Origin: Octopus vulgaris
Taxonomy: Eukaryota
Assembly: GCA_951406725.2 (NCBI GenBank)
Contig: OX597843.1
Location: 13,144,001-13,208,000 of the forward strand
Direction: 5' to 3'
Length of the DNA: 64,000 nucleotides
Below are positions 617-61,942 of the stretch, one piece after another (position 1 is the first letter of the stretch; every line of letters starts with the position of its first letter). The notes beneath the pieces are model-generated. The model had not been told where the DNA came from, did no database searches, and was given only the letters and a program-made list of their open reading frames with translations. Both the position numbers and the translations under genes were made by a program.

Positions 617-795
617 ATTTCCTCCGTCTTCCCTTCTTTGGATCTTTCCTTTTCCTATGTTTCTGATGAAGAGCCTCTGCTCGAAACGTTAAACCCTCCT
701 TCTTCCCTTCTTTCCTGAGCGTCCAATAATACTATATTTGTTCCACGTCCTCGCGTTGTTGTGTTTTCTCGTGTTTTCACGTTTGGATTAACTAC
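617..795 (+). mobile_element. Short (TA)n-embedded element carrying a minimal HHR
   Basis: Flanked by TA repeats; related copy on the minus strand at 60505-60753. Confidence 0.65.
659..694 (+). ncRNA. Minimal type I hammerhead ribozyme motif
   Basis: GTTT-CTGATGA-A-GAGC(CTCT)GCTC-GAAA-CGT-T-AAAC: stem I GTTT/AAAC, extra A after A9, loopless palindromic stem III. Confidence 0.65.
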
Positions 796-3216
796 ATATA
801 TATATATATATATGTGTGTATGTGTGTGTGTGCATATATATATATAGATATACATATACATAATACATATATATATATATATATATATATATATATATAT
901 ATATATATATATATATATATATATATATATATATATATATATATATATATATATATATATATATATATATATATATATATATATATATATATATATATAT
1001 ATATATATATATATATATATATATATATATATATATATATATATATATATATATATATATATATATATATATATATATATATATATATATATATATATAT
1101 ATATATATATATATATACAATGTGTATAAGCAGTATATATGCAGGGTTTTCTCTCTCTTGCTCCCACTCTCTCTCTCTCTCTCTCTCTCTCTGGTCTCAC
1201 TCCTTTTTACTATCTCTCTTCTCTCTCTCCCTGTCCACCTCATTCTTAACATCCTCTCCAAGTCTGCCCACCCTCACCTCTATACCTTCCTGTACCTCCT
1301 ACCCCCCATCTATCCTCTCCATCCTACCCCCCCCCCTGCTGCCATCCCCACCTCACTCACTCCATCCTTCCCTCTGTCTCTGTCTCTCTCTCTCCCTACT
1401 CTCATTACCCCTATATTACCACCCTGCCCACCTCACAATAATCCTTCCTCTCCACCCATGCCCTCCCAACCCCACTTTCCATCCATCCTCTGCTGTTACC
1501 ATCACCCTAACCCTTACCCTAATTATCTCCTAACATCACCACTAATGCCAGAGCCAACCCCACCTCCCACGCTACCACCAACACCACCACAACCACCATC
1601 ACAATTCCTACTAACACCACCACCACCACCACCACCACCACCGCTAGTACTGTGACCACCACCATCACTACTACTACTACTACCACCACCTCCAGCAATC
1701 AACTAGAACCACTGACACCACCACAACTACCAGCACTACCACTGCTACCATAATCATCATCACCGCCATCACCACCATCACTACTACCACCACCACCACC
1801 ACCACCACCATCACCAAACCACCACCACTACCACCACCACACCACCACCACCACCACCACCACCACTACCACCACTACTATCACCACCACTACTCCGATC
1901 CCCACCACCATCACCACCACTACCACCACCACCACCATCACCACTACCATCACCAAACCACTGGCACTACCACCACTACTCCAATCTCCACCACCATCAC
2001 CGCCACTACCATACCCACCTTCCCATCTGTCAGCAACCCTCCCCCCCCCCCGGCGCCCTCACCACCTACCCTCACGACAATCCCCCCACCTCCTATCCCC
2101 TTACTCTCCGCCACCACAACCACCACCACCACTGTCCACGCGACAGACAACTGCCGTAACAACAATGGTCCACACACGACACACAGACAGCCAGACGGAC
2201 GGACGGACGGACGGACAGGCAGCCGGCAAGCCATTTCAGTAAAGTGAGTCATAGCTTACCTTTGGGCTCGCCCCTACCTCACCCCTACACACACACACAC
2301 ACTCTCTACCAACCACCAACCCACCCTCTCCCCGTCGTCACCATCTCCACTGCCTCCGGTGCTGTTTCGCTCACCACCACCATCACTACTACCAAAACTA
2401 CTACTGTCAAGACTACACCTACTACTACGACCACCACTACTACCACCACTACTACTACAAGAGTCCCCAAACCTTCAATTACCACTACCACCACCATCAT
2501 CATCATCACCAACACCATCGTCACTCCTGTCATCATCATCACCAACAGTAACTCCACTGTGTAAGTTTCTGTGTATGTATGCATGTATGTATGTATGTAC
2601 ATATATACAACATATGCATGTATGCATACCTGCATGAATGTATATACACACATAAGCATACATACATATATGCATACATTCATATATATATATATATATA
2701 TACATACAAATATATATACATATGTACATATATAAATATATATACATACATATATATACATACATACATATATATACATACATATATACATACATATATA
2801 CATATACACATATATATACATACATATATATATACATATACATACACACACACACACACATATATATATATATATATATATATATGCATATATACATACA
2901 TATACATACATATATATACATATATATATATGTATATACATATATATACATACATATACATACATATATATATACATATATACATACATATATATACATA
3001 CATTATATATATATATATATATATATATATATATATATATATGTATATACATACATACATACATACATATATATATATACATATATATATATACATACAT
3101 ACATATACATACATACATATACATAGATACATATACATACATATATACATACATGCACACACACATATACACACACACACACACACACACACACACATAT
3201 ATAAACATATATATAT
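796..3216. repeat. Compound microsatellite/low-complexity block: (TA)n 868-1116, CT-rich, (ACC)n, (TACA/TA)n
   Basis: Directly visible. Confidence 0.95.
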
Positions 3217-4082
3217 AACAGTAGCAGTGTATCTCAGCACATCTTCAGTTGAGTGGGTGTGCACTATTGCTTATATCATCCTCATCTTTTAGCATCCATT
3301 GTCCTTGCTGGCATGGGTTGGACAGTTTGACCAGGGCTGGCACACTGGAGGGCTGCACCACACTCCAGTCTCATTTGGCATGGTTTTCTATGGCTGGATG
3401 CCCTTCTTAATGCCAACCACTCCAAAGGTGTAATGGGTGCTTTTACATACCCATAGCGTGACACTGGTATCTGCTGTGACTGCAATTTTGTTCACCTTGA
3501 TGGGTCTTCTTCTCGAGCATGACATTAAGCCAAAGGTCTCAGTCACTGCCACCATGAGGCTCAACACTTGAATGGAATACAGCCACTTTCCTTCTGTAAG
3601 GCCCAACACTCATAAGGGACTCAGCAACTTGGCTTCCATGAGGCCCAATCCTCGGAAGGAACTCAGCCACTTTGCCCCTGTGAGGCCCAACGCTCAAGAG
3701 GTGTTCTTTATGCGCCACCAGCATGGGTGCTCCTCGATTGATGGGTCCTCTCAAGCAGAGCACATCGCCAAAGGCCTCGAGCACCAGTCATTGCCTCTGT
3801 GAGGCTCAAAGTTTGAAGGTCATGCTTCACCACCTCATCCCATGTCTTCCTGGGTCTACATCTATAAAACAAACGATAATGACTGGAATGGAATACTTGG
3901 GAAACAATCGTTTCAACACATCCTGCCCTGATCCCTCACAGGTGGGAAGCTATACAGCTAGTTGTGGTGCATCCCTCGGACCAGAAGTATCTCATCAGAT
4001 GATGTAATAATGGGTATCTCATTAAATGAACTCTCTTTCAATTGGATTTAATACCACATGTTGTTAGTGTCTGTAGGTTTAA

Positions 4083-4302
4083 CTCTTTAGTGTTCAAATT
4101 TCTCTATTAAATGTAATACTTTTTCACTCAAATTGTTTTGAATTAATCATGCATTATCTTACAGCTTTGAGGTTTCAATGATGTGAATATTTATTTTTTG
4201 AATGTCAATGTAGGTTAGGTTTGAGGGGCTAAATATGGCCAGTTTGATTATAAGACATATAGAATATTTGGGCCAGATATGGCCGGTTTAAACACTAAAG
4301 GG
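4083..4302. mobile_element. piggyBac-like MITE
   Basis: TTAA|CTCTTTAGTGTT...AACACTAAAGGG|TTAA; degenerate relatives at about 63130-63660. Confidence 0.65.
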
Positions 4303-4363
4303 TTAATTGGTTACTAACAACATGCTGTATCAAATCCAAGCAAAACAGAATTCATTTAACGAG

Positions 4364-60120: not shown

Positions 60121-61084
60121 GTGATCTCCTTATTTGACCAGCCATTTCGCTGTCAAACTCCCACATAACGCCACCACCATCACCACCAACACCAACAACA
60201 ACAACAACAGCCCCTGAATCTAACAAATATCTAGCCATCATAACCTGCATTCAATCATTTACTGTGCAAATATATTATTGTCATAAATATACAGGCACAG
60301 GAGTGGCTGTGTGGTAAGGTAGCTTGCTTAACAGCTACATGGTTCCGGGTTCAGTCCCACTGCGTGGCACCTTGGGCAAGTGTCTTCTGCTATAGCCCCG
60401 GGCCAACCAATGCCTTGTGAATGGATTTGGTAGACGGAAACTGAAAGAATCCTGTCGTATATATATATACATATATATATATATATATATATATATATAT
60501 ATATGAAGTTAATCCAAACAAGAAAACACAGAAAAAAACAGAAAAAAACACACCAACGCGAGGACGTGGAACAATTAAAGTATTATTTGATGCTCAGGAA
60601 AGAAGGGAAGGAGGGTTTAACGTTTCGAGTGTTTAACGTTTCGAGCGTTTAACGTTTCGAGCTCTTCGTCGGAAACAAGGAGAAGGAAAGATCCCGAGAA
60701 GGAAGACAGAGGAAAAAAATATTTTTGCTGGTGGTGCTCAAGAGATCACATGTTATATATATATATATATATATATATATATATATATATATGTATATCA
60801 CATGTTGAAATATATATATATATATATATATATATATATATATTAATTAACGATTGAGGATAAAATCTTTAAAAGAAATTATTAGTAGTCAGCGTGAAAA
60901 ACCTCGTAAGAGAAAAAATCCGTAAATTCTTCCTCTTTGAAAATATTCATTTATATTATATTGAGGGTACTACTATTCGTAGATACCAACACGCTAAGAG
61001 GGACCAATGCGGTCAAAACTACTAAAATAAACAAAATTTTACCGAATGCAAAACTTCAAAACACATCATTTTAAAAAGAATTCA

Positions 61085-61148
61085 GTTACATATCACATGT
61101 GATTTCGCATTTAATGCAGAATATGCATTTCATGTTCGTCAGTGCAAC
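61085..61148 (-). ncRNA. Type I hammerhead ribozyme
   Basis: GTTGCA-CTGACGA-ACAT..ATGC-GAAA-TCACATGTGA-TA-TGTAAC; palindromic stem III, AUA site. Confidence 0.72.
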
Positions 61149-61489
61149 AAACTCAAGAAATATAAGAAAAAACATAACATTACAAACTCGATAGCCAACC
61201 GTAGAATTCGTTGTAGCTTGTACGAATGTTTATCCTTACATATCTATGAAAATGGCGGGCTAATGCTTTCGCAATGCATTTCGGTAACAAACTGCCTAGT
61301 TGGAATAAAAATTCAGTATTGAACTATGAATTTTTATTCCGACTAGGCAATTTGTTACCGAAATGCATTGCGAAAAAGCCCGCCATTTTCATAGATATGT
61401 AAGGATAAACATTCGTACAAGCTACAACGAATTCTACGGTTGGCTATCGAGTTTGTAATGTTATGTTTTTTCTTATATTTCTTGAGTTT

Positions 61490-61553
61490 GTTGCACTGAC
61501 GAACATGAAATGCATATTCTGCATTAAATGCGAAATCACATGTGATATATAAC
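61490..61553 (+). ncRNA. Type I hammerhead ribozyme (one stem I mismatch)
   Basis: Same as 61085-61148 but the 3' stem I strand is TATAAC. Confidence 0.68.
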
Positions 61554-61942
61554 TGAATTCTTTTAAAATGATGTGTTTTGAAGTTTTGCATTCGGTAAAA
61601 TTTTGTTTATTTTTAGTAGTTTTGACCGCATTGGTCCCTCTTAGCGTGTTGGTATCTACGAATAGTAGTACCCTCAATATATATATATATATATATATAT
61701 ATATATATATATATATATATATGTATGTGTGTGTTTGTGTGTCTGTGTTTGTCCCCCTAGCATTGCTTGACAACCAATTCAGCAAAAGAGACCAATAGAA
61801 TAAGTACTGGGCTTACAAAGAATAAGTCCCGGGGTCGATTTGCTCGACTAAAGGCGGTGCTCCAGCATGGCCACAGTCAAATGACTGAAACAAGTAAAAG
61901 AGTAAAAGAGTAAATACATATATACATACATACACATACATT

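What the first reader, a model, noticed from the sequence alone, without database searches (positions are those of the whole stretch)
617..61681. At least six HHR-bearing families all sit in (TA)n microsatellites
Seen: distinct HHR-like families at 659 and 60647; 12672, 13204, 26614 and 47843; 11573 and 27096; 26910; 21350-22998; 61085 and 61490. That is about 15 motifs in 64 kb. All are type I with self-complementary stem III and all lie in TA-flanked non-coding inserts. Inference: a genome-wide ecosystem of ribozyme-bearing non-autonomous retroelements using a TA-targeting reverse transcriptase, possibly also feeding (TA)n expansion. No PLE ORF is present in this window.
Basis: inference. 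Interest (0 to 1): 0.8.

Follow-up and report, generated by a model that had tools for sequence, protein, structure and literature searches.

The report
Octopus Penelope retroelements carrying hammerhead ribozymes
The self-cutting RNA motifs are real, but most are broken-off tail ends of a known class of jumping genes that insert into TA repeats, two are young non-coding hitchhikers of those genes, and a few carry unusual letters in the ribozyme core that would be worth testing.

Summary
The hammerheads are real: all 15 named motifs are present (two with inactivating point changes), plus a 16th at 38555. A strict descriptor gives 14 hits against 0 reversed and 0-2 shuffled. Longer genomic copies show that four of the six families are 3' ends of endonuclease-bearing Penelope-like elements (PLEs): B and D Neptune-type, A probably so (one locus), C Hydra clade. 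Only E (493 bp) and F (about 470 bp) are non-coding tandem units (non-LTR retrozyme type); they are young and insert with PLE-style inverted arrays and two fixed ends in (TA)n. The 3' ends abut TA far above background, but (TA)n preference and hammerheads in PLEs are published, also for an octopus Hydra element; the seventh family is not in TA, and TA expansion is not shown. What I did not find in print: high-copy natural core variants, namely U6 in family B (21,395 matches), A3:U8 in D, and G3:C8 in a family outside the window. A key paper on PLE hammerhead variants was unavailable. No cleavage or transcript was shown. The scan has reported truncated PLE hammerheads on other DNA. Verdict: new members of a known kind.

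The parts
617..795 (+). Family A copy; intact minimal type I hammerhead 659-694 (CUGAUGA, extra A after A9, 4-nt palindromic stem III). 3' end of a probable Neptune PLE
   Evidence: 12,193 genome matches of a 28-letter pattern, control 0; parent endonuclease end about 1.4 kb upstream in L226
11470..11713 (-). Family C copy; hammerhead 11573-11635 (U4C, one unpaired base before G12). 3' end of a Hydra-clade PLE
11999..12130 (-). Family D 3' fragment too short to hold the hammerhead
   Evidence: 90% identical to the 26753-26952 copy
12592..12734 (-). Old family B copy; hammerhead about 12672-12709 with U6 and G12 changed to A (presumably dead)
13132..13326 (+). Family B copy; hammerhead 13204-13239, core CUGUAGA (U6)
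21122..23122 (.). Family E insertion: 3.2 head-to-tail 493-bp non-coding units (+) and one inverted partial unit (-); four perfect-core hammerheads (21350-21456 -, 21907-22013, 22399-22505, 22892-22998 +) with a long stem II and a 12-nt self-complementary stem III; TA on both sides
26518..26727 (-). Family B copy; hammerhead 26614-26651 with U6 and G8 changed to A (presumably dead)
26753..26952 (-). Family D copy; hammerhead-like motif 26910-26952 with an A3:U8 core and a 1-2 bp stem II. 3' end of a Neptune PLE
26991..27175 (-). Family C copy; hammerhead 27095-27157, core CUGAAGA
38547..38625 (+).
47747..47962 (-). Family B copy; hammerhead 47843-47880, core CUGUUGA (U6). 3' end of a Neptune PLE
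60507..60750 (-). Family A copy; hammerhead 60615-60677 (U4C) with a local triplication in stem II/III
60844..61676 (.). Family F insertion: inverted pair of a non-coding unit of about 470 bp; hammerheads 61085-61148 (-) and 61490-61553 (+), 12-nt palindromic stem III, A-C mismatch at 10.1-11.1; TA on both sides
62300..62505 (+). Decayed C-terminal fragment of a Neptune-type GIY-YIG endonuclease, with no hammerhead found behind it

Best explanation
The window samples the debris of many (TA)n-targeting, endonuclease-bearing Penelope-like retroelements (PLEs) of an octopus genome (host inferred from the repeats). SHOWN: each autonomous element has an RT plus GIY-YIG ORF, a 3' UTR and a terminal repeat (pLTR) holding a type I hammerhead about 100-190 nt before a fixed 3' end that abuts (TA)n. 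Families B and D (Neptune), C (Hydra) and probably A (Neptune) are short 3' pieces of such elements. Families E and F are non-coding units in head-to-tail and inverted arrays whose two outer ends are both 3' ends, one at each of two fixed positions about 105 nt apart, in TA. INFERRED from PLE biochemistry: the endonuclease nicks TA tracts, the RT primes on the nick and starts at one of two internal sites of the RNA, on one or both strands (hence inversions and the 'tail'), and usually stops early. E and F RNAs borrow this protein in trans. The hammerheads cut, if at all, as dimers through the palindromic stem III; the copied template was not cut at the hammerhead, since the copies run through the cleavage site. 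The sharp 5' boundary of most A copies suggests that they are copies of short transcripts started inside the pLTR, so solo pLTRs may multiply like SINEs.
For: Parents: family D runs into an RT and endonuclease 61% identical to an intact 781-aa Neptune ORF, stop codon 159 nt before the core. Family B runs into a CxxxCxxC linker and GIY-YIG, stop 647 nt before the core. Family C runs into an ORF with CxCX5C, CxxC and CxH, the Hydra signature of PMC8557442 section 11. Family A runs through a CA-rich UTR to a Neptune endonuclease end in 1 of 7 fetched long copies. Intact Neptune copies have a hammerhead on both sides of the ORF in L163 and L167. TA targeting: a (TA)4 run follows the 3' end or the tail end in A 19 of 19, B 17 of 19, C 18 of 19, D 20 of 23, F 23 of 23 and E 22 of 22 ends in 15 insertions; background is 4.6% within 10 nt and 6.1% within 20 nt. 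E: 99-100% identical arrays on many chromosomes, 876 matches, longest stop-free frame 67 codons; all 7 insertions with both ends scored have one end of each type. Selection on the fold: the 3:8 pair is Watson-Crick in 34 of 39 clusters when left free. The centre of E's stem III changes AT to GC together in 9 of the first 100 matches (5 loci), against 7 one-sided changes at 1 locus; the same double change appears in contigs of runs X1 and X16. A 5' boundary: 89 of the first 100 copies that reach the boundary word stop there, about four in five at TA by eye.
Against: No cleavage, transcript or circle was shown here. The family loci were the best hits to the window copies, not a random draw. The A parent rests on one locus joined through low-complexity sequence. 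No partner PLE shares sequence with E or F among the elements fetched. Family G is not in TA and has no parent found. About half of the B copies run on past the candidate boundary, and C and D 5' ends are spread out, so the solo-pLTR transcript idea fits A best. Family F has an A-C mismatch at the base of stem II (the regex-captured motif in 22 of 24 loci) and D has almost no stem II, so these may be inactive.
Confidence: 0.85

Rival explanations
1. All families are independent non-autonomous ribozyme retroelements (retrozymes or hammerhead SINEs) that only borrow a TA-targeting RT.
For: E and F are such units. Most A copies have a fixed length with a sharp 5' boundary at an initiator-like word (initiator consensus recalled), and the D. 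virilis pLTR holds an internal promoter (PMC2377424, passages). Short copies outnumber parents by far.
Against: B, C and D run continuously into PLE ORFs with graded 5' truncation; A does so in L226.
Confidence: 0.1
2. The motifs in the amplified families are mostly dead relics: the hammerhead is carried along because it lies near the RT start site, and the variant cores (U6, A3:U8, weak stem II) are tolerated losses of catalysis, not working variants.
For: Hammerhead mutants of the anole PLE did not affect insertion in vitro (PMC11167929). Changes at A6 gave low activity (PMC3088659 section 8). Naiad PLEs spread without canonical hammerheads. D's stem II is 1-2 bp.
Against: In family B all four bases occur at the free position 7 (A 26, C 18, G 14, U 36 among 94 U6 copies) while the flanking core is kept. 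A3:U8 and G3:C8 are double changes that keep the pair. Stem III covaries in E.
Confidence: 0.35
3. The TA flanks are made or lengthened by the elements (TA added during reverse transcription or repair), so they drive (TA)n expansion.
For: Mean TA run at the 3' end is 39.5 (A), 25.5 (C), 34 (D) and 42.7 nt (F, young), above the 17.7 nt expected if a length-weighted existing run were split at random.
Against: B runs average 19.6 nt, near expectation. 89 of 107 window runs of 6 or more units do not touch these inserts. TA also lies at many truncated 5' ends, as a pre-existing target predicts. A preference for long tracts explains the same numbers.
Confidence: 0.15
4. Chance matches in an AT-rich, microsatellite-rich window.
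For: A loose descriptor does fire on shuffled AT-rich blocks; one false hit at 11914.
Against: Strict scan 14 against 0 and 0-2; whole-genome pattern counts of 40 to 21,395 with reversed controls of 0.
Confidence: 0.01

Closest known systems
Minimal type I hammerheads in pLTRs of metazoan PLEs (Cervera & De la Pena 2014, PMC4209133; parts 1-2 of 4 read, supplement file 2 searched)
   Same: Type I, extra base between 9 and 10.1, short palindromic helix III, many consensus families per genome, most copies solo and 'probably related to truncated PLEs', inverted pairs, U3-A8 covariation.
   Different: No octopus was found in the parts read or in supplement file 2. Here U6, A3:U8 and G3:C8 families occur, and E and F have long palindromic stems III and long stems II.
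Neptune and Hydra clades of EN+ PLEs, including Hydra-1_Obim of Octopus bimaculoides (Craig et al. 2021, PMC8557442; passages, section 11, supplement rows)
   Same: C-terminal GIY-YIG, cysteine linker, hammerhead near the 3' end, (TA)n preference, inverted 5' copy, tail on one end only. Hydra-1_Obim is listed with (TA)n and a hammerhead whose core start matches family C.
   Different: Family C is a sister family, not the same element: its stem II and III differ and three motifs from it were absent from that entry. Whether A, B and D are in Repbase or Dfam could not be checked.
Non-LTR retrozymes (Cervera & de la Pena 2020, PMC7229834, passages; Li, Clavereau & Pollet 2026, bioRxiv 10.64898/2026.07.22.740005, part 1 of 5 and passages)
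   Same: E and F: non-coding, low-GC tandem units with one type I hammerhead each, proposed to be mobilised by or derived from PLEs.
   Different: Units are longer (470-493 bp against about 300), dispersed as short inverted arrays with two fixed PLE-type ends in (TA)n; circles and cleavage are untested here. The PLE-type ends point to a PLE partner more directly than co-occurrence does.
Poseidon element of Anolis carolinensis (Frangieh et al. 2024, PMC11167929; parts 1-2 of 4 read)
   Same: Two internal RT start sites that give the tail, AT-rich targets, uncut RNA used as template.
   Different: Other clade; the tail there is 30-40 bp, here about 50 (D) and about 105-110 (E, F).

Membership tests
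Type I hammerhead ribozyme | Core C3 U4 G5 A6 N7 G8 A9 ... G12 A13 A14 A15.1 ... U16.1 H17 with three stems, stem I open | tested here: met
   Exact core in 8 window motifs (659, four E, 27095, 38555, 61085) and in 61490 with a weakened stem I; U4C in 11573 and 60630.
Type I hammerhead ribozyme | A at position 6 (family B) | tested here: not met
   U6 in 94, A6 in 3, C6 in 3 of the first 100 of 21,395 matches; sister family A has A6 in 98 of 100.
Type I hammerhead ribozyme | Watson-Crick pair 3:8 | tested here: met
   34 of 39 clusters (29 C-G, 4 U-A, 1 G-C); D A3:U8 in 38 of 40; G3:C8 in 98 of the first 100 of 2,199.
Type I hammerhead ribozyme | Stable stem II closed by G10.1-C11.1 | tested here: inconclusive
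   Met in A, B, C; A-U in E; A-C mismatch in F; 1-2 bp only in D.
Type I hammerhead ribozyme | Self-cleavage after H17 | not testable with these tools
   No assay; only contigs were available.
EN+ PLE, Neptune clade (A, B, D) | RT followed by a CX2-5CxxC linker and C-terminal GIY-YIG upstream of the hammerhead | tested here: met
   D: RT, linker and endonuclease. B: linker and endonuclease. A: endonuclease end only, one locus. Pfam RVT_1 and GIY-YIG on the intact relative.
EN+ PLE, Neptune clade (A, B, D) | Placement in the Neptune clade on an RT tree | not tested
EN+ PLE, Hydra clade (C) | Linker CxCX5C, CxxC and CxH near the end of the endonuclease, (TA)n insertion, hammerhead | tested here: met
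   L170 and L169 translations against section 11; Pfam found nothing on these pieces.
EN+ PLE | pLTR on both sides, inverted 5' copies, tail at one end | tested here: met
   pLTR-ORF-pLTR in L163 and L167; inversions and two 3' ends in D, E, F.
Non-LTR retrozyme (E, F) | Non-coding tandem units with one type I hammerhead per unit | tested here: met
   E: arrays of up to 10 units, no frame over 67 codons. F: more-than-unit copies, but no full dimer among 23 loci.
Non-LTR retrozyme (E, F) | Expression as linear and circular monomer RNA | not testable with these tools
   No holder is on record as RNA; the head-to-tail joint in four contig sets is also what genomic tandems give.
Non-LTR retrozyme (A-D) | Non-coding tandem unit independent of an ORF | tested here: not met
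   Longer copies run into PLE ORFs; no tandem unit was seen.

The most novel reading that the evidence does not exclude
This genome is a natural mutagenesis library of the hammerhead core. All four Watson-Crick pairs occur at 3:8 as fixed family states (C-G, U-A, A-U, G-C), and an A6-to-U family has kept its other core letters through several subfamilies and over 21,000 copies. If these cleave (as dimers or with help from the PLE protein), the natural consensus is wider than current descriptors allow, which would have hidden large ribozyme families. In addition, E and F would be recently active PLE-mobilised retrozymes whose two ends record one RT start site per strand, and solo pLTRs such as family A would be self-transcribing SINE-like units.
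Probability: 0.3. Interest if true: 0.65.

Novelty: new member of a known kind. Interest (0 to 1): 0.4.

Why it matters
The general picture (hammerheads in PLE ends, TA targeting, retrozymes as PLE passengers) is published, so the window adds a host, not a concept. Three points have value. (1) Scale: 17 credible motifs in 200 kb of arbitrary stretches would, if typical, mean on the order of 10^5 motifs genome-wide (a rough extrapolation; 7 of the 17 are in one array). A 2026 curated octopus repeat annotation does not use the words ribozyme or hammerhead in its main text (PMC13282606). (2) High-copy natural core variants give ready substrates for the open question of what the PLE hammerhead is for. 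(3) Near-identical E arrays and intact 781-aa Neptune ORFs in one genome make the proposed PLE-retrozyme partnership directly testable.

Tried and rejected
Rfam scan: no hammerhead among the 150 rows shown of 407; microsatellite noise. Loose descriptor with mononucleotide block shuffles: control too noisy, replaced by the strict scan. A third apparent motif per E unit (21796 and its copies, CUGCCGA) scored at shuffle level and was dropped. The hits at 11914 and 35703 were rejected as low-complexity. The GIY-YIG family search found Neptune elements but none continuous with the window families among 30 loci; the parents were found by walking upstream from family copies. Small-word BLAST of E and F against A-D, G and the intact Neptune 3' end found no partner. 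Rolling ORFs in circular E or F: none. Idea that the TA targets are mainly the TA tract inside the common SINE: only 7 of 97 TA-abutting copies have that SINE beyond the run, against 36 of 822 background run sides, so rejected as a general rule, although E and F in this window do sit in SINE tracts. Expression: no RNA holder listed; contigs cannot show ends or circles. Family G: no ORF seen upstream in 8 loci. The unbiased genomic sample is 200 kb (20 stretches) of a planned 600 kb. Literature searches for natural A3-U8, G3-C8 and A6U variants returned only U3-A8 as natural and G3-C8 as a made mutant. Lunse, Weinberg & Breaker (RNA Biol 14:1499, on PLE hammerhead variants) is not held; I saw only its title in a reference list, and it may already list such variants. 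Supplement file 1 of PMC4209133 and the bioRxiv supplements were not searchable and may bear on the same point.
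Full report
Setting. The window is contig C30:13,144,001-13,208,000 of a 2.8-Gb genome. It is full of microsatellites and SINE-type repeats. The host is inferred to be an octopus from these repeats and from the likeness of one element to a published octopus PLE; I did not identify the assembly.

Observation. I read each named site on both strands. All 15 motifs exist, and all are type I with a self-complementary stem III. Duplex energies of stem III with itself run from -1.7 kcal/mol (A, B) to -15.8 (F), with no stable hairpin, which fits dimer folding. 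A strict descriptor gave 14 rows (12 distinct motifs, one duplicate, one false) against 0 reversed and 0-2 in ten dinucleotide block shuffles. Four named motifs fail it: 12672 (G12 to A), 26614 (G8 to A), 61490 (stem I mismatch) and 26910 (variant core, weak stem II). In 20 stretches of 10 kb taken at round coordinates the same scan gave 19 rows, 17 credible, in 6 stretches, against 3 reversed and 0-4 shuffled. A scan of all fetched DNA (about 900 kb, biased towards these families) gave 264 hits in 39 clusters against 6 reversed hits.

What the families are. All are dispersed repeats. DNA searches gave 1,864 (A), 1,309 (B), 2,862 (C), 2,018 (D), 806 (E), 1,315 (F) and 71 (G) first-look candidates. 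Exact patterns gave 12,193 (A), 21,395 (B), 876 (E) and 40 (D) matches, each with a control of 0. Walking upstream found parents. D continues into RT, a CxxxxCxxC linker and GIY-YIG, 61% identical over 328 aa to an intact 781-aa ORF, with the stop 159 nt before the core. B continues into a linker and GIY-YIG, stop 647 nt before the core. C continues into an ORF with CxCX5C, CxxC and CxH, stop 828 nt before the core, the Hydra-clade signature. A continues through about 1.4 kb of CA-rich sequence to a Neptune-type endonuclease end in 1 of 7 long copies fetched. The genome holds many 781-aa ORFs (RVT_1 just under and GIY-YIG over the Pfam cut-off); they end in TA and carry a U3:A8 hammerhead, on both sides of the ORF in L163 and L167. 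Whether they are already catalogued could be checked only for C, which is a sister of Hydra-1_Obim (listed with (TA)n and a hammerhead).

E and F are different. E is a 493-bp unit with no frame over 67 codons and a circular fold about 6 SD below mononucleotide shuffles. It is 99-100% identical across chromosomes and lies in head-to-tail arrays usually joined to an inverted array. All 22 scored ends in 15 insertions fall on one of two positions (11 each) and run straight into TA; all 7 insertions with both ends scored have one of each. F is a unit of about 470 bp with more-than-unit copies, inversions and two ends about 108 nt apart. This is the PLE signature: an inverted 5' copy and a tail at one end, explained by two internal RT start sites. 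No partner was identified. Contigs of four public runs from four coded organisms hold E with its head-to-tail joint; none is on record as RNA, so expression is open.

TA targeting. A (TA)4 run follows the 3' or tail end in 19 of 19 (A), 17 of 19 (B), 18 of 19 (C), 20 of 23 (D) and 23 of 23 (F) loci (window copies left out; within 130 nt to allow for the tail, most within 20 nt of a mapped end). Background is 4.6% within 10 nt and 6.1% within 20 nt. These loci were best hits, not a random draw. Against a special link: family G has no TA within 200 nt in 8 of 8 loci; the common SINE starts at TA in 13 of 28 heads, a second SINE in 1 of 14; only 18 of 107 window runs touch hammerhead inserts. Flanking runs are longer than a random split predicts in four of five families, which fits either choice of long tracts or growth. 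Expansion is not shown.

Core variants. With positions 3, 6, 7 and 8 free, 34 of 39 clusters keep a Watson-Crick 3:8 pair; the other five are single low-copy rows. Family D has A3:U8 in 38 of 40 matches, while its 61%-identical relative has U3:A8, but D's stem II is only 1-2 bp. A family outside the window has G3:C8 in 98 of the first 100 of 2,199 matches (5,888 matches of a 19-letter word), although I saw its full fold in one locus only (L194). Family B has U6 in 94 of the first 100 matches, with all four bases at position 7; family A has A6 in 98 of 100 and mostly C4. In E the two central bases of stem III change together, AT to GC, at 5 loci against one locus with a one-sided change. Published natural variants that I saw are U3-A8, A6C and U4C; G3-C8 appears as a made mutant with partial activity. 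Four searches found no natural A3-U8, G3-C8 or A6U, but the most relevant paper (Lunse et al.) is not held, so novelty here is uncertain. Activity is untested, and hammerhead cleavage was dispensable for insertion in vitro in the anole element.

5' ends. Of the first 100 A copies that reach a word about 85 nt before the core, 89 stop there and 11 continue; none of 32 copies in earlier loci went further. The parent reads TCATTC at that point, which matches an invertebrate initiator consensus (recalled), and the D. virilis pLTR has an internal promoter. I infer that many A copies are complete copies of short pLTR transcripts. For B about half continue; C and D are graded.

Comparison and verdict. 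The system works like, and for A-D is, the pLTR hammerhead of EN+ PLEs (PMC4209133, PMC8557442). E and F fit non-LTR retrozymes by structure (PMC7229834; bioRxiv 10.64898/2026.07.22.740005), with circles untested. Earlier notes of this scan on other genomes reached similar readings; none existed for this genome, and they are not support. Novelty: new members of a known kind. Interest 0.4, carried by the core variants and by the young E family beside intact Neptune ORFs.

Noticed in passing
L194:8243-8292 (-), G000:C3 near 20.008 Mb: Hammerhead with a G3:C8 core, in a family with 5,888 exact 19-letter matches, often as close inverted pairs; 3' end in TA; parent not sought.
   Followed up: partly
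L183:2097-4770: Canonical type I hammerhead (6-bp stem I, 4-bp stem II) in a 359-bp tandem-plus-inverted array, 97-100% identical units, in TA: a textbook non-LTR retrozyme.
   Followed up: partly
L163-L168, L174: Intact Neptune-type PLE with an upstream ORF, a 781-aa RT-endonuclease frame, a 3' UTR with short internal repeats and a U3:A8 hammerhead; many near-identical copies, probably recently active.
   Followed up: partly
G000:C4:160027620-160028474: Four matches to the family G hammerhead at 265-bp spacing, a possible retrozyme array related to window 38555.
   Followed up: no
window 23116-23689 and 30284-31436: The common tRNA-type SINE forms head-to-tail arrays (179 and 191 bp) separated by TA, and its full form has an internal TA tract; E and F in this window are inserted in such tracts.
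   Followed up: partly
window 8425-11168 (-): LINE with a 717-aa open RT frame (RVT_1 E 6e-31, zf-RVT) and an adjoining 282-aa frame.
   Followed up: partly
window 4374-5426 and 14595-15918: 3' fragments of another LINE with internal tandem duplications of 234, 235 and 140 bp.
   Followed up: no
window 19959-20519 (+): Tc1/mariner transposase fragment (HTH_Tnp_Tc3_2, E 3e-10).
   Followed up: partly
window 26483-27360: Three different PLE ends (B, D, C) and a SINE stacked on the same strand, each separated by a TA run: serial insertion into the same tract.
   Followed up: partly
window 60615-60677: A 14-15-nt piece spanning stem II, GAAA and stem III is triplicated; similar local duplications at the hammerhead occur in family D loci L153, L154 and L160 at inversion points.
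   Followed up: no
runs X1, X16, X18, X20: Family E is present at high identity in four coded organisms, so it is shared among related species or recently transferred.
   Followed up: no
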